Below are positions 1-10,126 of a stretch of 64,000 bases of DNA, in pieces. A program made the translations under genes and the position numbers. The stretch lies in sequence record NC_105512.1; one strand, 5' to 3'. The stretch's first letter is position 1; the number at the start of each line of letters is the position of its first letter. Origin of the DNA: Escherichia phage JLBYU43. The notes below the pieces were generated by a model. That model was not told where the DNA came from and did no database searches. It saw nothing but the letters and a program-made list of their open reading frames with translations.

Positions 1-124
1 GTGCAGTGGGTTGGGGGAGAATACTTAGTCTGCTAACCGCCACCCCCGTTACTATTACCTTGCTAACTGTTTCATCCTGTAACCATTATTTAATTACAGG
101 ATGAAACTATTTTATTTTTAATTG

Positions 125-859
125 TTAGGCAACTTTTAATTTCTCAATATATTGTTGCGGGCTGCAACTATATTCTGCGCGTTCTTCTTCGGTCATACCT
201 TCCCAGCATAATTTTAAACGGTCAGCTAGGAATTGATAATCATTATCATCGTCGAGAGATTCATCAATAAAGGTTTCACCTATCAATGCCACGCCGATTG
301 ATAGAATATCGTTAATGGCTTGCGCGTCCAGCGTTTTAAATCCGTATGATGCCGCCGCTGATAATACGCCTTTATGATCATCAATCATCGTAAAATCAGC
401 GTTCGGATATAACTGTTTAAACAGTTCAAAGTAATAGCTTTTGTACACTGCATCTTTACTATGATATATATCGCTAACCTTATCAGCTTTAAAATATTTA
501 TGCAGTGTATCACGGGAAAATACGCGAATATTGCTTTTATCACGACCGCGTAAACCTTGTTTGCGCAGGAAGTAATAATCTGATTTGCTCATTAGTCGAG
601 CGGTACAAATAATGTTTAAAGTATTTGCGTCATTCATGCACTGGCGCATGTATTCAACTAATGGTAATAATGTATCTTGCATTATTAAATGATGTTTGCA
701 GGCTTCATTTTTATATTTATTTAAATCTAAATTGCCCTCATTATCAAAGCAAGGCGCTACACGATGGAAAGAATTAATGATAGTGCCGTCTAAATCCCAA
801 ATCATGACGCGGGAAATATGCGGGAAGCTGCGGGAAATAGTCATAATAGCTTTATTCAT
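125..859 (-). CDS. dmp: 5'-deoxyribonucleotidase Dmp (HAD-like)
   Basis: 244 aa; N-terminal HAD motif I (WDLDGTI); size and position match my recollection of T5 Dmp; GGAG RBS. Confidence 0.8.
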   Translation of the reverse strand: MNKAIMTISRSFPHISRVMIWDLDGTIINSFHRVAPCFDNEGNLDLNKYKNEACKHHLIMQDTLLPLVEYMRQCMNDANTLNIICTARLMSKSDYYFLRKQGLRGRDKSNIRVFSRDTLHKYFKADKVSDIYHSKDAVYKSYYFELFKQLYPNADFTMIDDHKGVLSAAASYGFKTLDAQAINDILSIGVALIGETFIDESLDDDNDYQFLADRLKLCWEGMTEEERAEYSCSPQQYIEKLKVA

Positions 860-938
860 TTGTTACGTTCTCCATTTAAGGGATTAGATTAATTCAGCAT
901 TACCCGCTATTTATAAGCGGGTAATAATAAATTAACTA

Positions 939-1331
939 TTAAAGACCAAAAGCAAGAGCATCGGCGATAAAACTAATATCCTCGCCGGATACACTGGAAC
1001 GAATGCCAGCGCAGGTGTATACCTTTGCACTGGTCAATTGATCATCAAGGCAGGCGAGGCAAGGCGCGACTACTGCAAAAGCTAAACCGGATTTTACGGC
1101 GTCGATGATAATCGTTTCTTGTTTCATCGTGTCAACATAAACACCTTTTGCTTTAATATGGCTTGTTAGTTTGCCTTGCATATATGCAAACGTTGTTACC
1201 TGTAGCGCCTCGTTAAAGTCTAGCAGTTCATCAATAATATGACCCGATTCAACGTGATAACGCTCGCCATTAGAATAAACCAGAACAATGGAAGATTGAG
1301 CGCGATCGAATGGAATATTTTGCTTTTTCAT
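939..1331 (-). CDS. hypothetical pre-early protein
   Basis: 130-aa ORF with the conserved TAATCCCTTAA-GGAG leader upstream. Confidence 0.55.
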   Translation of the reverse strand: MKKQNIPFDRAQSSIVLVYSNGERYHVESGHIIDELLDFNEALQVTTFAYMQGKLTSHIKAKGVYVDTMKQETIIIDAVKSGLAFAVVAPCLACLDDQLTSAKVYTCAGIRSSVSGEDISFIADALAFGL

Positions 1332-1368
1332 AGTTATAAAACTCCAGATTATTTAATAAGGGATTAAT

Positions 1369-1659
1369 TTATTTAATTTCAATACTAGCTGAATGGTTAG
1401 TTAATTCAACTGGTACATTAAATGATTCTTGTGAAAGGGTGTAACAATCAATAGTGATAAGAGAATCACAACCGATAATTATTACCCCATTATAGGCCAT
1501 TACTATAAAATCCCCTTTCCTGATTGGGTAATCGGGATAATCGTAACAATCAGAGCAAGCGCGGTAAACATGGTTATTTAAATATGCGTCACTGATTGGA
1601 ATATCAGATAATAAAAGGGATTTAGGCGAAAAGTCATTAATAGGTAGTACAATATTCAT
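1369..1659 (-). CDS. hypothetical pre-early protein
   Basis: 96-aa ORF in the leftward pre-early gene array. Confidence 0.5.
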   Translation of the reverse strand: MNIVLPINDFSPKSLLLSDIPISDAYLNNHVYRACSDCYDYPDYPIRKGDFIVMAYNGVIIIGCDSLITIDCYTLSQESFNVPVELTNHSASIEIK

Positions 1660-1716
1660 TTGATTAACCTTTTATTAATGGCGGTATATTTCAACCGCTA
1701 GGATGTTAATTAGTTA

Positions 1717-3387
1717 TTATGCAAAGAATTTTCCATTCTTAAAGTCAATCAAAGTACGTTGCCCGTTTGCATATGTAATTAAATGCGTTTGCGTCCAGCT
1801 TGACGCGCCAACGTTGTAACCCATATCCAGACTACCAGCAACGCCCGCGGTATATACGCCACCGTAAATGCTTGCCGTATGCGTATGCCCCGTGTTTAAC
1901 TTGCCCAATTTCTTAAATTGCTTAGGATTACCACGGCTGCCGTTAATGCCGTTGTGACCATGTACGCCGCATTCAATGCCTGCAATCTTGAAAGATTGAT
2001 CAGTGGTCAGGAAAATGGCGTTAAATTCACAACCTGCAACATTACGCAAGGCATAATCTAGCACGTTAAACGTTTCGTCGTGTTCACCGATTGCCGCGTA
2101 AATAGCCGCATTCAGGCGGTGATATATTTCCGCGTTTGCGGGATCGTCCTTAATGTTAGCATTACGATCATCAAGCCAACGGGATAGCGCCAAATCGTGA
2201 TTCGATTCGACAATGATCGTTTGACTAAAATCACGTTCCATCGATTCCAGCACGCGCCCCGTATCGATAAGATCATCCAGAACTTTATCACGTCCGGCGG
2301 CATACTGTTTTGCTAGGAATACACCGGATGCGCGGTTATGATGATTGCGGGATGTAAAATCATGCACGTCATGCACAAACTGATATTTTGGTTTAAGAAT
2401 ATCCACAAGCCCATAAGTATCACCATGCCCCCAAGATGCGGCGGCGCACTCTTCATCTAATTTTTCGGCGTGAATATCACCATACTGCAAGCCTAAAACA
2501 TGCCCCGATGTCTCATAGCATCCGGCAGGAGTAGCGCACACATTCAGATCATAAAATACCCCGCTTTCGTCCATCGTTTCGAGCTGGCGTACAAAAAATT
2601 CGCCGTCGTCGTCAAATTCTACCAGCAAAGCGCCGTAATTATGCAGCGCCTCAGCTTTTTGACCTGCTTTCTGCTGAATATAGTTTTTAAGTGTAGCCGT
2701 TCCGGTGGAGTACATACGGCGCACTACTTCACCTTTTAACGCTGGCACACTTTCAGCGGTAATTTTTGCGTGACCAATTGCCAGCCCTTCAATATTTAAA
2801 GCGGTGGCAGTTTCTGCGAATCCTGAAAGCGGGTAGTCTGCCGTTGGTAATACGTTAATTTCAGCCATGAAAGCAAAACGGCGATTGTTTAAAAATACAT
2901 TTTTCTCGCAGATATATTTATCAAATGCGGAGTCATATTTGATTTTTTCGCCGCCTTCCCCGTTCTGGAAGCCGTTTTTATTATAAATATACTTAGAAAC
3001 AAGCAAATCGGCACCGATATATTCAGCGAATTTTTCCAGACTTGCTAAAAAGTTTTTATGCGGGAAAGTATTATTCTGAATCGACGTAATAATAAAACGT
3101 TTACCCTGTTTTACTTCCCATTGCTCAACCGTACTAGAAACAATCCCAGCCGCTTCGGGGCGCTCGTCGTTTTTAATGGCTTTTGCTACTTTTGCCGCTT
3201 TCGGTTTAGCTGGTTTGTTTGCTTCCAGCCAATCACAAATGGCGGTAGAATGTTTCGTTGTATCGTAGACTGCTTTTGATATATCGTCGCAGACCTCCAG
3301 TTTAGTAGCGCGCAGACGTTTACCATAAAAATTAAAGTCAGCGGCCATTTTCAGGATAACGGTTTGTTTTTCTGCGGAAATAATCAT
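1717..3387 (-). CDS. A1: A1 protein, metallophosphoesterase-like
   Basis: 556 aa, the size I recall for T5 A1; calcineurin-like motifs GDIH and SNHD; conserved leader and GGAG RBS. Confidence 0.8.
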   Translation of the reverse strand: MIISAEKQTVILKMAADFNFYGKRLRATKLEVCDDISKAVYDTTKHSTAICDWLEANKPAKPKAAKVAKAIKNDERPEAAGIVSSTVEQWEVKQGKRFIITSIQNNTFPHKNFLASLEKFAEYIGADLLVSKYIYNKNGFQNGEGGEKIKYDSAFDKYICEKNVFLNNRRFAFMAEINVLPTADYPLSGFAETATALNIEGLAIGHAKITAESVPALKGEVVRRMYSTGTATLKNYIQQKAGQKAEALHNYGALLVEFDDDGEFFVRQLETMDESGVFYDLNVCATPAGCYETSGHVLGLQYGDIHAEKLDEECAAASWGHGDTYGLVDILKPKYQFVHDVHDFTSRNHHNRASGVFLAKQYAAGRDKVLDDLIDTGRVLESMERDFSQTIIVESNHDLALSRWLDDRNANIKDDPANAEIYHRLNAAIYAAIGEHDETFNVLDYALRNVAGCEFNAIFLTTDQSFKIAGIECGVHGHNGINGSRGNPKQFKKLGKLNTGHTHTASIYGGVYTAGVAGSLDMGYNVGASSWTQTHLITYANGQRTLIDFKNGKFFA

Positions 3388-3478
3388 AGTAATAAAACTC
3401 CATTAAAGGGATTAGATTAATAATGGCAATATTGCCAAATATAACGCCTCAAATAATAGGCGTTATAATTTGCAATAT

Positions 3479-3676
3479 TTAACTAATAGGCATCAGGCTA
3501 GAACTAACACCACAAACAACGGCGGCAATAAAACAAAGTAAGCCTAACCGCTTTGCTAACTTAGATTTGCGTTTAAAATAATACGAATCTAGATCATTTT
3601 GAAAATAAGTGAACAATAATGAGGCCGCCATAATAAACAAGCCTAGAATCAAAGATTCAGTAGGGAAGAAAATCAT
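3479..3676 (-). CDS. small membrane protein
   Basis: 65 aa, two hydrophobic helices, conserved pre-early leader. Confidence 0.45.
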   Translation of the reverse strand: MIFFPTESLILGLFIMAASLLFTYFQNDLDSYYFKRKSKLAKRLGLLCFIAAVVCGVSSSLMPIS

Positions 3677-3732
3677 TTTTAAAACTCCTGATTTAAGGGA
3701 AATTAGTGGGGAGTATTCCCCACTAATTAAAT

Positions 3733-4140
3733 TTATTCACCTGCGGCCTGTTTTACTTCATCGGCAACGCCTAACAATTGCGCCACGGCTTCCAGCGTTT
3801 CAAGTTTTGCACTTTCCAGCGATGCCAGATCATCGGCGTCTTTGATAATGCCGGAATCGATAGCATGTTTAGCGATAACGCGCACATAGTGAGCTTTACG
3901 CACAGAGCTACCGCCGCCAACTTTACGCGGCTTATCGCTTTTTTGATAGGCTTTTGCACTGGTCAATTTTGACCGAACGGATACGGGAGAAGCCGCGCCT
4001 ACTGCTTTTGCAATCTCTTTTAAACCGTCGCTATTTGCGAAATCTAAACCGTTTTCATTGATTAACTGCTGGTACATAGAAACAGCTTTCTGAGTGTTTT
4101 CTTCGTTCCATGCGAATTTTGCGGTTTTTGCGTTAGTCAT
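3733..4140 (-). CDS. A2: A2-like DNA-binding protein
   Basis: 135 aa directly upstream of A1 with an HTH-like segment; the A2 assignment rests on size and position. Confidence 0.6.
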   Translation of the reverse strand: MTNAKTAKFAWNEENTQKAVSMYQQLINENGLDFANSDGLKEIAKAVGAASPVSVRSKLTSAKAYQKSDKPRKVGGGSSVRKAHYVRVIAKHAIDSGIIKDADDLASLESAKLETLEAVAQLLGVADEVKQAAGE

Positions 4141-4240
4141 GGTAAAAACTCCTATTAGTTTAATTTAAGGGATTAAATGATTAACTAATGTTAATCGTTA
4201 TATGCCCCGAACTACTGGGGCATATAAAGTTAACACTAAA

Positions 4241-4492
4241 TTATAAAACAGCTTCCCACTTTTCGTTACGTTGAACAACCTTTACAACGTCGCCAGATTT
4301 AACGCGAACGTTATAAATTGGCTTGCCGTTGTTACTGCGTTCCGTTTCAGCGTATACCGCTTCGATTGTATCGAACGGCATAAGCGCCGCACCTTTAATA
4401 CGTTCGGCTTTTCCGGTTAATTCATCCATTTTAGTAACGAAAGGAATGAAGACGGATTGACCAACTTTCGGCGCGGTAATAACGTTTTGCAT
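4241..4492 (-). CDS. hypothetical pre-early protein
   Basis: 83-aa ORF with GGAG RBS; a 10-bp stem / GAAA loop hairpin lies upstream at ~4527-4552. Confidence 0.5.
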   Translation of the reverse strand: MQNVITAPKVGQSVFIPFVTKMDELTGKAERIKGAALMPFDTIEAVYAETERSNNGKPIYNVRVKSGDVVKVVQRNEKWEAVL

Positions 4493-4719
4493 AGTATAAA
4501 CTCCTAGTTATTTGGGGATTGTTCCGCATTACCTGCTAGAAAGTAGCAGGTAATAAGTAACAATCCGCTCGCCAATATAATAAAGTTAAAGAACTCCACG
4601 TAGGCCGCTATATCCCAGTTAGGGGGCGGGATGCATTATGGTAAGCACCGACCGTCAAATTGTATCAAGTTATCGCTCTTGTCGAACTGGGTATATCTTA
4701 AAGCCTATCGGCTAGGGTG

Positions 4720-4923
4720 TCAAACTGTTTTTTGCAGTTTTTTATGATTTTCTTTCAGGTCAATCATAATGTTTCGCCAGATCATTTCTAAACCTTGCTG
4801 GCGACCTTTCTTGTACTGCTTGAATCGGTATTTTACCGATCTTTGCGCTACGGTCAACAAATTTTTTGTTTTGCTATCTAGTGCCTTGCTAGGCTTGCCA
4901 GTGATCAATAAAGTTTGTTTCAT
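4720..4923 (-). CDS. small basic protein inside an inverted-repeat-flanked segment
   Basis: 67-aa Lys/Arg-rich ORF bracketed by perfect 25-bp inverted repeats (4688-4712 / 4956-4980). Confidence 0.3.
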   Translation of the reverse strand: MKQTLLITGKPSKALDSKTKNLLTVAQRSVKYRFKQYKKGRQQGLEMIWRNIMIDLKENHKKLQKTV

Positions 4924-5492
4924 ATCGTCGATTCCTTATAGTAGATAAGTTTACCGCCGATAGGCTTTAAGATATACCCAATTTTTAAAGAGCGCGGCGG
5001 TAAACTTCCCGCCGTGTAGTTCGTCATTGCCGCCCTACGAGATAAATAATAGGGGATTCCCGAAAATGGCGCAACCTTATTTTTGTAAAGAAACGTAAAG
5101 ACACGATTCACCGCACCACGTCCGGCGACGGCCTAAAATTAAAAGAAACGGGCGCGCAAATACCACAAAACATAGCAGATAAGCAAGTAATTTTTTCATT
5201 TATATTTGCTTTGCCCTAATTGACAAAATCCAAAAAGCTCATGGCAGCGATAAACGGCTTATCCCTTTATGATTGGATGGCTAAAAACTTTATTGCGTTC
5301 TGGAGCGTTTTCTCACTGCTGCCCTTATTATAATAAAGCCTTGTGTACGCTTACAGGACGCTAGAAATAGAAAACGCGCGGCTATCATAAAATTAGACGC
5401 TAGGCAAGGAAAATAAAAAAGTAAAATAATCTTTGCCCCTAGAAAGAAAATACCTTTATCATTCTTCTACCGATTAACGAGGAGGCCAACAA

Positions 5493-5819
5493 ATGCGGCT
5501 ATATAAACCAGATAACGCAACCGTCTTAAAAGGTGCACTGCGTAACCTGCTGGATGGTAGCAGAACAACCAGCATCCGGCATTTTGTTTTCAATTTTGAA
5601 ACTATTCATCAAAACTTTTTTGATGAATATGACGCTCATAATATGAATAGTTTTCTACCGTTATATAAACAAGGGGCAACGCTTGTTTTGTATAATCAGG
5701 ATTATCAATTGCTCACTAGTCGGGGGCCGGATACTGATTTCATAATCGTAAAAGGCAACACAGTAAAAGCCTATGATACTGGGGCGGGCTTAGAAGTTTT
5801 TTTCAATAGAAAACTATGA
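5493..5819 (+). CDS. hypothetical protein
   Basis: 108-aa ORF, strong GAGGAGG RBS. Confidence 0.55.
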   Translation: MRLYKPDNATVLKGALRNLLDGSRTTSIRHFVFNFETIHQNFFDEYDAHNMNSFLPLYKQGATLVLYNQDYQLLTSRGPDTDFIIVKGNTVKAYDTGAGLEVFFNRKL

Positions 5820-6129
5820 AGCCAATGATAATGATCTTTATGACGTAGAAAATTTTCTTGATTCATTTTGGCGTTATTTATCAGTTGGCTGGAATCGGTC
5901 GGATTATGACGGGTATTGTTTTGCGGCTATAATGGCCTTCGATGATAACGGTAATTTTTTGCTACCGTCGGAACTATGCCCGTATGTTTATAATGATCTG
6001 ATACAGGAGGCCGGTTTTACTTTCTGGAAAGATGAGGATCAGATTATTAACAGTATAGAAAAACATGCTGTAAATTCTAACACTCAAAGCGTTATCACTC
6101 AAACTACTGAAAATAAAGGAAAAAACACT

Positions 6130-6486
6130 ATGACCAAGATCGCTAACATCGTTGCCGCCAATAAGTCTGCCGTTGTAAACGCTGCAAAACTGGAAGCGGG
6201 TAAAATTGCACTAACTCAAATCACGAAAGTAGCGGCTAAAAAAGCACCGTTCATGATCAAAGGTTATATCGATACGCCGATTGGTCGCGTAGTAATCGCT
6301 AACCTGCTGAGTGTAGTGGTTGACCAGTACGCCCCTAACAACCAAAAAGCGAAAGCGGTAGCAGGCGCGGCTATGGAAGCGGCAATGCTGGAAATGGTAC
6401 AGAGTTTCAATATTGCTGAAATGATCGATGAAATGGTAAAAGGTATTGACATTTCAACCTTTACCCAAAATGCTGAAAGCGAGTAA
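6130..6486 (+). CDS. hypothetical protein
   Basis: in-frame ATG with an AAGGA RBS inside track ORF 5932-6486; start uncertain. Confidence 0.4.
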   Translation: MTKIANIVAANKSAVVNAAKLEAGKIALTQITKVAAKKAPFMIKGYIDTPIGRVVIANLLSVVVDQYAPNNQKAKAVAGAAMEAAMLEMVQSFNIAEMIDEMVKGIDISTFTQNAESE

Positions 6487-6605
6487 TAATTAGTCTAATG
6501 TAAAGTTTTGTAAAGGTCGCCTATTATGGCGGCCTTTTTTGTTATAATGCCTTTACACCGAAACGGTGGATTGAAAATTTTCCCTGATTTCTAGGAGGCG
6601 TTAAA

Positions 6606-6833
6606 ATGGTACATTCATCATCTTCTGCAATTTTTAATGGTATGGAATGGGTATCCGTTCCCGCTATTATCAGCGTTATGGTTTCTGAATTTGGGATTGG
6701 TAAAACTTATGTTACCATTCAGGAGCTTTACGACAATGACAAGATTGATCAGCAAACAGCCGGATTTTTGCTGGATGAATTGAAAGCTAACTACTGCACC
6801 AAAAAGCAAGCGGTAAAAATTGTTTTAATGTAA
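6606..6833 (+). CDS. hypothetical protein
   Basis: 75 aa, AGGAGG RBS. Confidence 0.5.
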   Translation: MVHSSSSAIFNGMEWVSVPAIISVMVSEFGIGKTYVTIQELYDNDKIDQQTAGFLLDELKANYCTKKQAVKIVLM

Positions 6834-6879
6834 TTATTAAAGGGGATAATATATCCCCTAATTTCTAGGAGCTAATGAA

Positions 6880-7062
6880 ATGGTTATTTTTCGATCTATT
6901 CTGGCTAGTATCTTGGGCGCTATTTTATCGCTGTTTGTAATAGCTTTCGGTATTCAGGATTCCTATTGCGGTTTGGTAAACACAAAACCTATGGTTATTA
7001 TTGGAGCAGGTATCGCTGTATTTTCTTATCTGCTGGGCTGCATGACTAGTAAAGGAGAATAA
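6880..7062 (+). CDS. small membrane protein
   Basis: 60 aa, hydrophobic, AGGAG RBS. Confidence 0.5.
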   Translation: MVIFRSILASILGAILSLFVIAFGIQDSYCGLVNTKPMVIIGAGIAVFSYLLGCMTSKGE

Positions 7063-7064
7063 AA

Positions 7065-7277
7065 ATGATCCGCAACGTTTCTCTTGCACGTTCGAAAGGC
7101 TTTAAGCTGGTGGATGCTAACACGTTCGAGCGGGAAGATTGTAAAATCGAATATGTAGCACGTAATAAAAATGCCTTTCGTGTTACCGAGAAAAAATTTG
7201 ATAAGCGCGGCAACGTGATCCTTGAAACGGTTAGGCACTTTGCCACCTTTTACGCTGCATTTCGTGGGGTACTATGA
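7065..7277 (+). CDS. hypothetical protein
   Basis: 70 aa, AAGGAGA RBS. Confidence 0.45.
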   Translation: MIRNVSLARSKGFKLVDANTFEREDCKIEYVARNKNAFRVTEKKFDKRGNVILETVRHFATFYAAFRGVL

Positions 7278-7400
7278 AAAGCGTTATTGTTGTTCTCCTT
7301 GCAATGGCTGGCGGTTTTATCGCCACCTTATTTAAGAATGATCCCACTTCGTTGGGGATCTTTATGTTATTATCTGGCTATCTGATCGGGAGGTTATAAA

Positions 7401-7745
7401 ATGGTTATTTATGAGGGCAATCGTTTTGTTGCTAACTGCCGCCCGGCATTGTTAGCAAACTATTTGAACCAGCTTTCGCCAGCTTATAAGGGCGTTATTA
7501 ATATTTATGAGGGCAAGGCGCATTATAAAATTAATGCGGTCGTTGCCCGTGAACTAGCGTTTCAATTTTTAACCTTTGCAGCTTGCGACGTTCAGGTTAT
7601 GGGTGAGGCATTAATCGCAGAAAATGAAGATGATTTTATTAATATTTTTCGCAAGATATGCACCGAGCGCCTGATAATGAAAGGCGCATATATTCAATCC
7701 ACGGCTGATAGTATTGAAACAGCGTTTCGAAAAATAGGTAAATAA
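7401..7745 (+). CDS. hypothetical protein
   Basis: 114 aa, GGGAGG RBS. Confidence 0.5.
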   Translation: MVIYEGNRFVANCRPALLANYLNQLSPAYKGVINIYEGKAHYKINAVVARELAFQFLTFAACDVQVMGEALIAENEDDFINIFRKICTERLIMKGAYIQSTADSIETAFRKIGK

Positions 7746-8018
7746 TATGGCTGTTTATATTGCTTTGCTAGGATATGCGCTATCCCTTATTGCTGGTATG
7801 GTTACTTATAACATGATCGGCAATATTGTGTTACCCCTTGTTGTCTGCACTATCTTAGGTCAGTTTTGCGGAATGTTCGTTATGTATAAATTAATGCAAG
7901 GAAAATAATACTAATGAAACTATATATTTTCGTTGGTAATGCTGAGGCAGCTAATGATTCCGCTGGTGGCGGTAACGTTCGCCACTATTGGCAAAAATAT
8001 ATTTACTAGGGCGTTATT

Positions 8019-8222
8019 ATGAGCAATAAAATTGTTGTAACCAAAACTACTACGATGGTAGACGTTTTCTACGTGCCCGATACGCCGGAAAACCGACAAG
8101 CGGTTGAGCGTGGGGAGTATGATAAAGTGATTTATGATCACGATGGTTATTATCAGTATTTAGTGGATTCATATGGGGAGGAGGAAAAAATCACGCATCG
8201 ACTACCAGAGGAGGATTTATGA
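8019..8222 (+). CDS. hypothetical acidic protein
   Basis: 67-aa ORF. Confidence 0.45.
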   Translation: MSNKIVVTKTTTMVDVFYVPDTPENRQAVERGEYDKVIYDHDGYYQYLVDSYGEEEKITHRLPEEDL

Positions 8223-8375
8223 AACGATGGTTTAATCACTGGTATAAACGGTTTTTAGTACGCCGTCGCAAGTCTAGATATCAAGATGAGTGGCGGGAGT
8301 GGGCAAAGCGTAACGATTGCCCACTACTATAATAATCACGGGGCGCAACTCTCAGGGAGTGCCCCCGTTTCTCAA

Positions 8376-8396
8376 ATGAGAATCATTCTCATTTGA
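8376..8396. repeat. palindrome AAATGAGAAT-C-ATTCTCATTT
   Basis: perfect 10-bp inverted arms with a 1-nt centre; first member of a repeat family recurring to ~8910. Confidence 0.7.
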
Positions 8397-8616
8397 CCGC
8401 GCCCGCGATGGTTAGCCTGCTAATGGTTAGGGTGTTACGTGTCGCCTTGTGTGATCGTTAGCGAGCTAACTAATTTTCAAGCCTCCTCCAATTTTGCCCT
8501 TGTTTTAGTATCCCCACCAAAATTAAACGCGTTAGAATGCGATCTAGGACGTTTTAGCGGTATATTAGAATTATTCACTGCGTAGGAATACTGTATATTT
8601 ATACAGTAGGATAAGC

Positions 8617-8625
8617 TGTGGATAA
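8617..8625 (-). promoter_or_regulatory. DnaA box (TTATCCACA on minus strand)
   Basis: exact 9-mer TGTGGATAA read on plus strand. Confidence 0.6.
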
Positions 8626-8689
8626 GTCTGTTAATAACGCCTCAAAATGGCTAGGGTTTTATCAAGTCAAATCGTGCTGTTAATAAACC

Positions 8690-8698
8690 TGTGGATAA
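8690..8698 (-). promoter_or_regulatory. DnaA box (TTATCCACA on minus strand)
   Basis: second exact TGTGGATAA, 73 bp from the first, same orientation. Confidence 0.6.
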
Positions 8699-8719
8699 CT
8701 TAAATAACAGTGTTTCTCA

Positions 8720-8910
8720 CTTCCATTCTTAAATGCGAATCATTATCATTATCATTTGTATTTCACTTCCTAAATGAGAATCATTCCACTTTTTAACTGA
8801 GAATCACTCCACTTTTTAAATGATTCTCATTTCACTTTCTAAATGCGAATTACTATCATTCTCATTCCGCTTTTTAAATGAGAATGATTCTTATTTTTAT
8901 TCTCATTTAG
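8720..8910. repeat. array of AAATG(A/C)GAAT(C/G)ATT partial palindromes
   Basis: about 6 degenerate copies at ~20-35 bp spacing, several self-complementary. Confidence 0.6.
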
Positions 8911-8932
8911 CGCAGGGCAAATTGCCCTGCGC
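8910..8932. repeat. perfect 23-bp palindrome GCGCAGGGCAA-A-TTGCCCTGCGC
   Basis: exact 11-bp inverted arms around one central base. Confidence 0.75.
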
Positions 8933-8936
8933 TTTT

Positions 8937-9672
8937 GTGCAAATCCGACATTGCTCCACGGGTGTTACGTGCGGGCGTGTATGTGCGAATCCGACAATTT
9001 TTGGTAGTGTGCAAATCCGACCCCAAAATTTTTTATAGTGTGCAAATCCGACAATGAATTTTCCCAAAAACTCCAGCAATCTCGAACTGCGTTCGAATCC
9101 TGTGGAATATGTGCAAATCCGACATGGTTTTTCTAGGATTAAGATGTGCGAATCCGACAAGATTTTTGTGACTTCGATGAGAAGGTGTGTGATTGTGTGA
9201 GTTTGGGGAGAAGTTGAGAGAGCGAGAGAAAATTAGGGGAACTGCGAGAGGGGCAGCAGTGGTGGCGTGCAACGCCTGATTTGCTGCGTTTTTGGGGAAG
9301 AGTTGAGAAGATTTGGGTTAATTTGAGATTAGGGGAGATAAAGTAAAATTTTATTAGCAAAATGGGGCAAAATAGCTTGACAAGTGAAAATTTCTGTGGC
9401 TCTAAAAAACTCAGGCAATCATGGGCCTTCGGCCCGAAATAATGCTGCCATTTTCAATATCCATAGAAACTCTGGAGACCCCTATCAATGTGCAAATCCG
9501 ACCATAAATTTCTAGAAACACAATGTGCAAATCCGATAGTAATTTCTGGAAATGTGTTTTGGAAAAATGCCTTCTAGAAATAACCGCCCTCCCTATAACC
9601 GCCCTGTATAGGAAAACCGGCCTAGGATATGTGACGTTGAGAGAAACTGCCCTAGAACATGTGCAAATCCGA
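8937..9672 (+). repeat. iteron-like direct repeats GTGC(A/G)AATCCGA, 9 copies
   Basis: copies at 8937, 8983, 9009, 9040, 9111, 9146, 9490, 9525 and 9661, all in the same orientation, mostly as TGTGCAAATCCGACA. Confidence 0.8.
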
Positions 9673-10126
9673 TTTAAAGTTTAGTATAAACGCTAGAGTT
9701 AGTGTTTAACTATTTAACTATTCCTAGAAACTTAGGAGTCTACTAGAAAGTGTTGAGCCATCCTAGCAGATGAGCGGCAACTGAGTGTATCATCTTGAAC
9801 GTTAATTTACCTATTTGACAATATCAGTTTTTATGTAAGTATAAGATCCCCAGGGTTCTCATATAGAGCTTTGCCCCCGCCAGAAGGTCTCGTGATGTTT
9901 CTAGTAATCTTTATTAAATTACCTGTTGACTTGTCCTGTCGCTCCGTAACCTACGCTACAAGTCAGTAATTTAAGATTCCTGAACCACCACACCTTCTGT
10001 GTGGCAACTCTAAATGGTTAATTCTATTAACTCATAGAGTTATGATAACATACATTTAGCTATCTGTCAACGAGAGTTTGTATTATTGTCTCGGTACAGG
10101 TATTGTGCACCGAGACTTGCAAGATC

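What the first reader, a model, noticed from the sequence alone, without database searches (positions are those of the whole stretch)
860..4530. Conserved 5'-leader motif TAATC(T)AATCCCTTAAA immediately upstream of the Shine-Dalgarno of successive pre-early genes
The same ~12-16 nt element precedes the GGAG RBS of dmp, ORF 939-1331, ORF 1369-1659, A1, ORF 3479-3676 and A2, with a variant before ORF 4241-4492. It is absent from the rightward pre-early genes and from early genes. Such conservation in untranslated spacers suggests a shared translational or RNA-processing signal.
Basis: seen in the sequence. Interest (0 to 1): 0.45.

Follow-up and report, generated by a model that had tools for sequence, protein, structure and literature searches.

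The report
C-run leader before pre-early ribosome sites
A short run of cytosines sits a few bases upstream of the ribosome-binding site of almost every "first-injected" gene of this T5-like phage and of its relatives down to Vibrio phages; it can pair weakly with that site, so it probably tunes or co-ordinates translation of these genes, though no experiment has tested this.

Summary
The window is the left end of a T5-like phage. The motif is real and above chance. Exact TAATCCCTT occurs 4 times (about 1 expected), always on the minus strand in pre-early leaders. The composite pattern [A/T]TCCC–N2-20–GGAG–N5-11–ATG occurs 11 times against 1.06±0.98 expected, and 8 of those lie in the first 7 kb, all in sense orientation.

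ORF 1369-1659 has no copy in its leader; a copy lies inside the ORF. Two rightward pre-early genes (6606, 6880) do carry the core.

The deeply conserved part is a C-run (CC/CCC/CCCC) in a G-poor, A/U-rich leader, 3-17 nt before a uniform (U)GGAG Shine-Dalgarno (SD). It is present in 67-79 of 82 leaders of the dmp–A1–A2 operon across Demerecviridae (Escherichia, Salmonella, Klebsiella, Pantoea, Proteus, Aeromonas and Vibrio phages). Other genes of the window largely lack it.

The C-run is complementary to the SD guanines with the SD adenine bulged (CCC:GG(A)G). It co-varies with variant SDs in Vibrio phages (CCGC:GCGAG, CCAC:GUGAG). The predicted stems are weak, no better than shuffled sequence.

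Best reading: a pre-early-specific partial anti-SD leader module acting on translation initiation (confidence about 0.4). There is no Rfam match, and I found no paper describing it.

The parts
874..892 (-). dmp leader element UUAAUCUAAUCCCUUAAAU. C-run at 880-882, SD GGAG at 870-873, ATG at 857-859.
1351..1367 (-). Leader element of ORF 939-1331 (T5.002 homologue), UUAAUCCCUUAUUAAAU. C-run at 1360-1362, SD at 1342-1345.
3402..3420 (-). A1 leader element UUAAUCUAAUCCCUUUAAU. C-run at 3408-3410, SD at 3398-3401.
3691..3705 (-). Leader element of ORF 3479-3676 (T5.005 homologue), variant UAAUUUCCCUUAAAU. C-run at 3697-3699, SD at 3685-3688.
4163..4184 (-). A2 leader element UUAAUCAUUUAAUCCCUUAAAU. 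C-run at 4169-4171, SD at 4149-4152.
4510..4522 (-). Leader element of ORF 4241-4492 (T5.007 homologue), variant ACAAUCCCCAAAU. C-run at 4514-4517, SD at 4501-4504.
6577..6598 (+). Rightward pre-early ORF 6606-6833: AUUUUCCCUGAUUUCUAGGAGG. C-run at 6582-6584, SD at 6594-6598.
6851..6871 (+). Rightward pre-early ORF 6880-7062: AUAUCCCCUAAUUUCUAGGAG. C-run at 6855-6858, SD at 6868-6871. The C-run is also the 3' arm of the hairpin AGGGGAUAAUAUAUCCCCU (6841-6859).
1611..1624 (-). Orphan copy UAAAUCCCUUUUAU inside ORF 1369-1659, 37 nt after its ATG, with no SD after it.
899..925 (-). Intercistronic G+C-rich stem-loop upstream of the dmp leader element. Similar stem-loops lie at 3440-3467 and 3424-3438 (before A1), 3703-3726 (before ORF 3479-3676), 4200-4225 and 4179-4196 (before A2), and 4529-4553 (before ORF 4241-4492).
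   Evidence: some are annotated as putative terminators in Bf23 and another relative
4695..4723 (-). Sigma-70 promoter-like site TTGACA-17-TAAGAT heading the leftward operon. It lies at the position T5 annotates as P-D/E20.

Best explanation
The element is a leader module specific to pre-early (first-step-transfer) genes. It consists of a short C-run inside an otherwise G-free, A/U-rich untranslated leader, 3-17 nt upstream of a uniform 4-nt SD, (U/A/C)GGAG.

The C-run is a partial anti-Shine-Dalgarno sequence. Its cytosines can pair with the three guanines of GGAG while the SD adenine bulges out: c1-G4, c2-G2, c3-G1, with an optional fourth pair between the base after the C-run and the base before the SD. 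This closes a small, breathing stem-loop.

Inferred function: it acts in cis on the mRNA to set, and possibly let a trans-factor co-ordinately control, translation initiation of the genes expressed from the first 8% of injected DNA.

Shown: presence, sense orientation, position, family-wide conservation, complementarity, and co-variation in part of the family.

Inferred: that pairing occurs in vivo, and that its effect is attenuation or operator-like control rather than enhancement.

The longer TAATC(N)AATCCCTTAAA string is the local, T5-clade form of this module.
For: 1. The element is real, clustered and sense-oriented in both divergent pre-early operons.

2. Conservation is far beyond sequence drift. 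The C-run plus GGAG arrangement recurs before nearly every gene of the dmp–A1–A2 operon in T5, Bf23, Epseptimavirus, Klebsiella Sugarlandvirus, Pantoea AAS21, two IMG/VR relatives, Proteus Novosibvirus, Aeromonas AhSzq-1 and four Vibrio phage lineages. CCC is present in 67 of 82 leaders and CC in 79 of 82, with a median spacer of 8 nt.

3. Complementarity to the gene's own SD: 85 of 91 leaders allow at least 3 of the 4 modelled pairs, against 7 of 59 other genes of the window.

4. Co-variation. Variant SDs carry matching C-elements:
- GCGAG with CCGC (4 leaders)
- GUGAG with CCAC (2 leaders)
- UAGAG with CCUA
- UGG with CCCA, CGG with CCCG, AGG with CCCU, GGGAG with CCCC
Fisher p for GCG/CGC is 0.0014.

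5. Permutation tests. Shuffling SDs among leaders gives a native score of 3.33 against 3.01±0.054 (0 of 20000 permutations reach it). Shuffling only within genomes gives p≈0.001, and p=0.0016 for 10 mutually distant genomes.

6. Folding. In 6 of 8 window leaders the minimum-energy fold pairs the C-run with the SD guanines. In silico C→U raises the mean unpaired probability of the SD guanines from 0.35 to 0.54.
Against: - The stems are weak. Mean ΔG is -2.3 kcal/mol. The window leaders fold no better than dinucleotide shuffles, with z from -0.66 to +1.04. RNAalifold finds no consensus structure.
- Because these are almost the only G and C residues in the leaders, a folding program pairs them by default.
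- Inside the T5-like clade, including this window, there is no co-variation signal: within-genome native 28 against a permuted mean of 29.1. U·U mismatches next to the CC:GG pairs persist.
- Loops reach 17 nt.
- Two cruder complementarity tests gave no signal.
- The co-varying Vibrio leaders may partly be paralogous copies of one cassette, so independent events are few, roughly four or more.
- The T5 clade conserves more sequence than pairing needs (UAAUC repeats, UU(A/U)AAU after the C-run). That points to recognition of single-stranded sequence as well.
- No experimental data exist.
Confidence: 0.4

Rival explanations
1. Single-stranded translational enhancer or standby site. The pyrimidine patch with a C core, in an unstructured A/U-rich leader, is a landing site for ribosomal protein S1 or the 30S platform. 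It boosts initiation at a modest 4-nt SD, so that pre-early mRNAs out-compete host mRNAs in the first minutes.
For: - The leaders are unstructured, with z-scores near 0 or positive.
- They are G-poor: 7% G, 24% C, 68% A+U.
- Variable spacing to the SD (3-17 nt) is tolerated, as expected for an upstream S1 site (general knowledge of S1 targets, recalled from memory).
- C-clusters are often tandem: UAAUC-N-UAAUCCC in T5-likes, UAACCC-CUAACC in phi3.
- The SD is uniformly moderate, about -6 kcal/mol against the anti-SD.
Against: - S1 is not known to need cytosines. If any pyrimidine sufficed, C→U drift would be expected in these A/T-rich genomes.
- This reading does not explain why the third position of the C-element changes together with the SD.
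- No consistent complementarity to any 16S rRNA segment.
Confidence: 0.22
2. Operator for a trans-acting factor. The C-run/SD mini-hairpin with its bulged A, or the C-run itself, is bound or cut by a phage or host protein. That protein shuts off all pre-early genes together after second-step transfer, and keeps the second copy in the right terminal repeat silent. The logic resembles the MS2 coat-protein operator or T4 RegB/RegA.
For: - The element is restricted to the one temporal class that is shut off early, and other genes largely lack it.
- The stems are too weak to act alone, so they would need a stabilising partner.
- The T5 clade conserves flanking sequence beyond what pairing requires.
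- How pre-early expression is switched off is described as unresolved; A1 co-purifies with RNA polymerase (PMC7472727; bioRxiv 10.64898/2026.04.02.716235).
Against: - No candidate RNA-binding protein was found. Pfam and PHROGs give no RNA-binding domain for the pre-early proteins.
- The published view places shut-off at transcription, via A1 and RNA polymerase.
- Lineages differ in the flanking bases (UCCC against AACC), which would require co-evolution of the factor.
Confidence: 0.15
3. RNA processing or stability signal. The A/U-rich stretch with the C-run, downstream of the intercistronic stem-loops, is an RNase E-type entry or cleavage site. Cleavage would cut the polycistronic pre-early RNA into units protected by 3' hairpins.
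For: Most copies follow a G+C-rich stem-loop. The leaders are A/U-rich and single-stranded.
Against: - The distance from hairpin to C-run varies from 3 to 16 nt, and the ORF 939-1331 leader has no hairpin at all.
- The element tracks the SD, not the hairpin.
- It also occurs in a leader that follows a promoter-like TGTTATAAT and a terminator-like hairpin (ORF 6606), so that copy may lie in a primary 5' UTR with no upstream cistron. No transcription start was mapped.
- RNase E has no known preference for C-runs (from memory).
Confidence: 0.07
4. Transcription-elongation signal: a boxA-like Nus site, a Rho loading site, or a site read by A1-modified RNA polymerase. It would control read-through of the terminator-like hairpins between pre-early genes.
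For: - The A1 leader CCCUUUAAU resembles the boxA core CUCUUUAAC (boxA consensus recalled from memory).
- The leaders are C-rich and G-poor.
- A1 associates with RNA polymerase (PMC7472727).
Against: - The match to boxA is no better than for shuffled leaders: mean 6.63 against 6.53 of 12, and no 7/7 core.
- The leaders are not the strongest C>G regions of the operon.
- One antitermination site per operon would be enough.
Confidence: 0.06
5. DNA-level feature or evolutionary by-product: a protein-binding site on DNA, or repeated leader cassettes maintained by gene conversion that mainly serve as recombination joints for shuffling accessory genes, like the T4 PeSL cassettes.
For: - Near-identical 19-mers occur at different leaders within one genome: dmp and A1 in the window, and A2 in phiAPCEc03 and SelmaRatti.
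- The slot between A1 and ORF 002 varies in gene content. The Bf23 and DT571/2 deletion ends inside the ORF 002 leader.
Against: - Strict sense orientation in both divergent operons, and fixed placement before the SD.
- Conservation across genera whose leaders otherwise share no sequence.
- No promoter in the cassettes.
Confidence: 0.05

Closest known systems
Local anti-SD / SD-masking leader hairpins (for example fourU and ROSE RNA thermometers, or T4 e and soc early transcripts whose ribosome site is sequestered)
   Same: An upstream pyrimidine element complementary to the SD lies in the same leader. It is predicted to lower SD accessibility.
   Different: Here the stem has only 3-4 pairs with a bulged A and is thermodynamically marginal. 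It is repeated before many genes of one temporal class and conserved across a whole phage family. No switch, whether temperature, ligand or alternative promoter, is evident.
MS2/R17 replicase translational operator (coat-protein binding hairpin; sequence recalled from memory)
   Same: A small hairpin in which SD purines G(A)GG pair with CCC, an A bulges, and the loop is A/U-rich. It is used for protein-mediated translational shut-off.
   Different: The arm order is reversed: here the C-run is 5' and the SD is 3'. The start codon is not in the stem. Loop length is variable. No binding protein is known. This is a mechanistic analogy, not homology.
Upstream translational enhancers (T7 gene 10 epsilon; A/U- or pyrimidine-rich S1 sites)
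   Same: A short conserved leader element a few nucleotides upstream of the SD of highly expressed phage genes, in an unstructured A/U-rich context.
   Different: No consistent complementarity to 16S rRNA. The conserved bases are cytosines, and they co-vary with the SD, which enhancers do not require.
T4-type PeSL cassettes (early promoter plus stem-loop between early genes; from memory)
   Same: Repeated intergenic regulatory cassettes with a stem-loop between small early genes, in a region whose accessory gene content varies.
   Different: No promoter inside the T5 cassettes. The repeated part is the ribosome-site leader. A recombination role is only suggested by one deletion junction.
boxA of rrn operons and lambdoid nut sites
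   Same: A hairpin followed by a short C/U-rich single-stranded box. The A1 leader has 7 of 9 identities to the boxA core.
   Different: The family-wide match is at chance level. The element is present before each gene rather than once per operon.

Membership tests
SD-masking (anti-SD) leader hairpin | An upstream element complementary to the SD of the same leader | tested here: met
   85 of 91 leaders allow at least 3 of the 4 modelled pairs. The figure is 9 of 11 pre-early genes against 7 of 59 other genes in the window.
SD-masking (anti-SD) leader hairpin | Compensatory co-variation between the two arms | tested here: inconclusive
   Family-wide permutation p<5e-5, and within-genome p≈0.001. 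GCG/CGC Fisher p=0.0014. However, there is no signal inside the T5-like clade, independent events are few, and two cruder tests gave no signal.
SD-masking (anti-SD) leader hairpin | A stem stable enough to occlude the SD | tested here: not met
   ΔG is about -1 to -3 kcal/mol, with z from -0.66 to +1.04 against shuffles. RNAalifold gives 0 kcal/mol. Mean unpaired probability of the SD guanines is 0.35.
SD-masking (anti-SD) leader hairpin | Mutating the upstream arm raises translation | not testable with these tools
   Needs reporter fusions or toeprinting.
Protein-bound translational operator (MS2-type) | A specific RNA-binding repressor | not testable with these tools
   No RNA-binding domain was detected in the pre-early proteins. 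Early proteins were not examined.
boxA / Nus-factor site | Match to the consensus GCUCUUUAACAA (core CUCUUUA) | tested here: not met
   Best match averages 6.63 of 12 against 6.53 for shuffled leaders. No 7/7 core was found; 12 of 82 reach 6/7 against 8.8% of shuffles.
rRNA-complementary enhancer (epsilon-type) | Consistent complementarity of the element to one accessible 16S rRNA segment | tested here: not met
   RNAduplex of 54 leaders against E. coli 16S gives scattered targets with no common site.
S1-type A/U- or pyrimidine-rich enhancer | An unstructured, A/U-rich, G-poor segment just upstream of the SD | tested here: met
   Composition is A 35%, U 33.5%, C 24%, G 7%. No stable structure.
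S1-type A/U- or pyrimidine-rich enhancer | S1 binding and S1-dependent stimulation | not testable with these tools
   A biochemical assay is needed.
T4 PeSL-type mobile regulatory cassette | An early promoter within the repeated intergenic cassette | tested here: not met
   No sigma-70-like site in any leader. The only such sites lie upstream of the operon, at 4723-4695 and 4857-4830.
Rho utilisation (rut) site | An extended C>G, unstructured region that stands out from its surroundings | tested here: not met
   The leaders are not the top C-minus-G windows of the operon at 40 or 78 nt.
Any curated RNA family (Rfam 15) | A covariance-model match | tested here: not met
   Only one chance-level hit (Hrs12, E=0.85) in window 1-10000, and it lies outside the leaders.

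The most novel reading that the evidence does not exclude
The C-run/GGAG mini-hairpin with its bulged adenine is a class-specific translational operator. It would be shared by all pre-early genes of Demerecviridae and recognised by a conserved phage or host factor. That factor would switch off the first-step-transfer genes post-transcriptionally, and keep the terminal-repeat copy silent later. This would add an RNA layer to the long-unexplained pre-early shut-off of T5.
Probability: 0.15. Interest if true: 0.7.

Novelty: new variant of a known kind. Interest (0 to 1): 0.5.

Why it matters
How T5 expresses its first-injected genes so briefly, and then silences them, remains unresolved. The published view centres on A1 bound to RNA polymerase (PMC7472727).

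A cis element that marks essentially every gene of that class, and that persists from coliphages to Vibrio phages, offers an experimental handle:
- It can be mutated in reporters or in the phage.
- It can be used as bait for binding factors.
- It can be used as a signature to recognise pre-early genes in new Demerecviridae genomes.

If it turns out only to tune ribosome-site strength, it is still a clean natural example of a family-wide, modular ribosome-site design.

Tried and rejected
- Rfam scan of window 1-10000 at a permissive threshold: nothing relevant.
- Sigma-70 promoter scan: no promoter in any leader, so the element is not an internal promoter.
- 16S rRNA complementarity: a 9-nt match of UAAUCUAAUCC to the GGAUUAGAU loop region looked attractive, but it occurs in only some T5-clade leaders, and the best duplex targets are scattered. 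Pairing with the 16S 3' tail is topologically impossible for a site upstream of the SD.
- boxA similarity: at chance level.
- rut-like C>G profile: not distinctive.
- Two first-pass complementarity permutation tests, using the longest stem anywhere in 24 nt and a CC:GG seed, gave no signal. They included distant hairpin arms, cut off short loops and could not handle variant SDs. The anchored bulged-A model replaced them.
- RNAalifold on A1 leaders from 14 phages: no consensus structure, partly because MAFFT did not put the SDs in register.
- Distant A1 homologues outside Demerecviridae (41-49% identity, metagenomic contigs) lie in different gene contexts and lack the element.
- Single-protein scans of IMG/VR with the Vibrio or Proteus A1 found only near-identical genomes.
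- Literature searches found no description of the motif. The 2005 T5 genome paper and the 1980s sequence papers are not in the searchable library, so prior mention cannot be excluded.

Full report
**Context.** The first 5.2 kb of the window match T5-like phages (Demerecviridae) at 80-92% identity over nearly their whole length. The gene order matches the left terminal repeat of T5. On the minus strand it runs: T5.007 homologue (4241-4492), A2 (3733-4140), T5.005 homologue (3479-3676), A1 (1717-3387), a variable ORF (1369-1659), T5.002 homologue (939-1331) and dmp (125-859). A sigma-70-like TTGACA-17-TAAGAT site at 4723-4695 lies at the position T5 annotates as P-D/E20, and a second site at 4857-4830 corresponds to P-H22. 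These are the pre-early genes carried on the first-step-transfer DNA.

**Checking the observation.** Reading the 80 nt upstream of each start on the mRNA strand shows the element 5' of a GGAG SD for six of the seven leftward genes. Coordinates are in the parts list.

- Exact TAATCCCTT occurs four times in 64 kb against 0.96 expected. All four are on the minus strand, in leaders.
- Looser forms of the string are not enriched window-wide. The significance therefore comes from the exact core and its placement.
- The composite pattern [A/T]TCCC–N2-20–GGAG–N5-11–ATG occurs 11 times against 1.06±0.98 in Markov simulations. Eight of the eleven lie in the first 7 kb, each in sense orientation before a pre-early ORF.

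- ORF 1369-1659 has an AAAGG-type leader without the motif. The copy at 1611-1624 lies inside that ORF.
- Two rightward pre-early genes (starts at 6606 and 6880) carry the core: TTTTCCC...TAGGAGG and ATATCCCC...TAGGAG. T5.012 and T5.013 do the same in T5.

Other genes of the window mostly have promoter-proximal leaders of the TATAAT...ATAAATTGATGAGAGGA type and lack a C-run. CCC at -37..-9 occurs in 8 of 16 pre-early ORFs against 17 of 93 others, p=0.0097.

**What is conserved.** Within 26-34 distinct T5-like leaders per gene, the C-run and GGAG are among the invariant columns. Much of each intergenic region, including the stem-loops, is also conserved at this short evolutionary distance.

More distant relatives are more informative:

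- Klebsiella KpGranit (A1 73% identical)
- two IMG/VR phages (65-68%)
- Pantoea AAS21 (65%)
- Proteus phage 1 (42%)
- Aeromonas AhSzq-1
- Vibrio phages phi3, Javier, Ceto, BBMuffin and D414 (about 32-34%)

All of these keep the dmp–A1–A2 operon. Almost every one of their leaders has a C-run in an A/U-rich context a few bases before the SD. Examples are cuaaCCCCuuaaauaaaacuGGAG, auuuuCCCuuuaauuaGGAG and uuaaaCCCauaaauGGAG.

Across 82 operon leaders, 67 have CCC and 79 have CC within 22 nt of the SD. The spacer ranges from 3 to 17 nt, median 8. The 25 nt before the SD contain 7% G and 24% C. The SD itself is strikingly uniform: (U/A/C)GGAG(U/A), about -6 kcal/mol against the anti-SD.

The divergent pre-early operon of the Vibrio phages also carries the element in sense orientation. 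A1 homologues outside the family sit in other gene contexts and lack it.

The deep core is therefore W-W-C-C-(C). The longer TAATC(N)AATCCCTTAAA string is the T5-clade form, often a tandem (UAAUC)N0-3(UAAUC)CC. Strict sense orientation in both divergent operons argues for an RNA-level or transcription-coupled role rather than a DNA site.

**Mechanism: the pairing test.** RNAfold pairs the dmp C-run with the SD as UCCC/GG(A)GA, with the SD adenine bulged. When this is generalised (c1–G4, c2–G2, c3–g1, x–y for an SD written y-g1-G-A-G), the variant SDs of the Vibrio and Aeromonas phages fit:

- GCGAG with CCGC (Javier A1, dmp and a divergent gene; D414 dmp)
- GUGAG with CCAC (phi3 and BBMuffin A1)
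- UAGAG with CCUA
- at the fourth pair, UGG/CCCA, CGG/CCCG, AGG/CCCU and GGGAG/CCCC

Eighty-five of 91 leaders allow at least three pairs, against 7 of 59 other genes of the window.

- Permuting SDs among leaders gives a native score of 3.33 against 3.01±0.054; none of 20,000 permutations reaches it.
- Permuting only within each genome, which removes lineage effects, gives p≈0.001. For ten mutually distant genomes, p=0.0016.

The signal comes from the Vibrio phages (Javier p=0.011) and weakly from the Klebsiella and Pantoea phages. Inside the T5-like clade there is none; the window scores 28 against a permuted mean of 29.1.

**Limits of the pairing model.**

- Mean ΔG is -2.3 kcal/mol. The SD guanines are predicted unpaired 35% of the time, against 54% after in silico C→U.
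- The eight window leaders fold no better than dinucleotide shuffles, z from -0.66 to +1.04.
- RNAalifold finds nothing.
- Earlier, cruder permutation tests gave no signal.
- Some co-varying leaders may be paralogous cassettes.

I therefore hold the pairing model at about 0.4. It explains the number of cytosines, the position and the co-variation. It would act, at most, as a gentle and easily melted mask unless a factor stabilises it.

**Rivals.**

- *S1 or 30S enhancer.* A single-stranded site fits the unstructured, G-poor context and the variable spacing. It does not explain cytosine conservation or co-variation, and no common 16S target exists.
- *Trans-factor operator or cleavage site.* This would suit the class specificity and the weak stems. 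No RNA-binding domain was found among the pre-early proteins. Published work places shut-off at transcription through A1 and RNA polymerase (PMC7472727; bioRxiv 10.64898/2026.04.02.716235).
- *boxA.* Similarity is at chance level.
- *Rho loading site.* The C>G profile is not distinctive.
- *Internal promoter.* No promoter lies in the leaders.
- *RNA processing.* This cannot be assessed without 5'-end data. The element tracks the SD rather than the upstream hairpins, and it also occurs in a leader that follows a promoter-like TGTTATAAT and a terminator-like hairpin, so that copy may have no upstream cistron.
- *Recombination by-product.* Near-identical 19-mers occur at different leaders of one genome, and a deletion junction lies in the ORF 002 leader of Bf23 and DT571/2. 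Both suggest the cassettes also exchange by recombination. I take this to be a by-product.

**Novelty and verdict.** There is no Rfam family. No paper in the searchable library mentions the element. Older T5 sequence papers could not be searched.

Upstream anti-SD elements and leader enhancers are known kinds of feature. A class-specific version conserved across a phage family, placed before nearly every pre-early gene, appears not to have been described, so I rate it a new variant of a known kind.

Noticed in passing
window 5493-6486 (+): The homologue of T5.011 (336 aa in T5) is split between two reading frames. Residues 1-105 match 5493-5801 in frame 1, and residues 105-336 match 5800-6483 in frame 2. 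This could be a frameshift, a pseudogene or a sequencing error near 5800.
   Followed up: partly
window 8365-9672 (+): A dense repeat field at the position of the T5 injection-stop-signal region. It holds 9 direct copies of (A)TGTGC(A/G)AATCCGA(C), 7 copies of the palindromic AAATGAGAATCATTCTCATTT unit, and two CTGTGGATAA (DnaA-box-like) copies at 8613-8625 and 8686-8698. These are known features of T5 and not part of the finding.
   Followed up: partly
window 3424-3438 and 4179-4196 (-): Small A/T-rich palindromes lie just upstream of the C-run in the A1 leader (UUGGCAAUAUUGCCA) and the A2 leader (GAUUAACAUUAGUUAAUC). The A1 palindrome recurs in Klebsiella phage KpGranit as UUGGCAAUUUUGCC. 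Their function is unknown; they could be second hairpins or protein sites.
   Followed up: no
window 1369-1700; L002 1327-1400; L004 1970-2529: The slot between A1 and the T5.002 homologue varies in gene content. It holds one ORF here, none in Bf23 and DT571/2, and two in SelmaRatti. In Bf23 the deletion junction removes the C-run of the next leader.
   Followed up: partly
L059, L060, L146, L147, L148 (Vibrio phages), leaders of A1, dmp and neighbouring genes: A palindrome, TTTACACTGTAAA (or TTTACAGTGTAAA), is repeated upstream of several pre-early genes of the Vibrio Demerecviridae, often as a pair flanking about 10 nt. It has no counterpart in the T5-like leaders.
   Followed up: no
window 15262-62730, many leaders (for example before 62026, 54470, 34716): Genes outside the pre-early region share a stereotyped promoter-to-start segment, TATAAT-N6-8-ATAAATTGATGAGAGGA-N-ATG. 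The one before 62026 looks like the classical P-N25 sequence (recalled from memory). The 5' UTRs of these genes would be only about 25-30 nt.
   Followed up: no
window 4923-5493 compared with L001 5411-5929: T5 carries the HNH endonuclease gene hegG between the divergent pre-early operons. The window has no ORF of that size there, so the homing-endonuclease gene appears to be absent from this phage.
   Followed up: no
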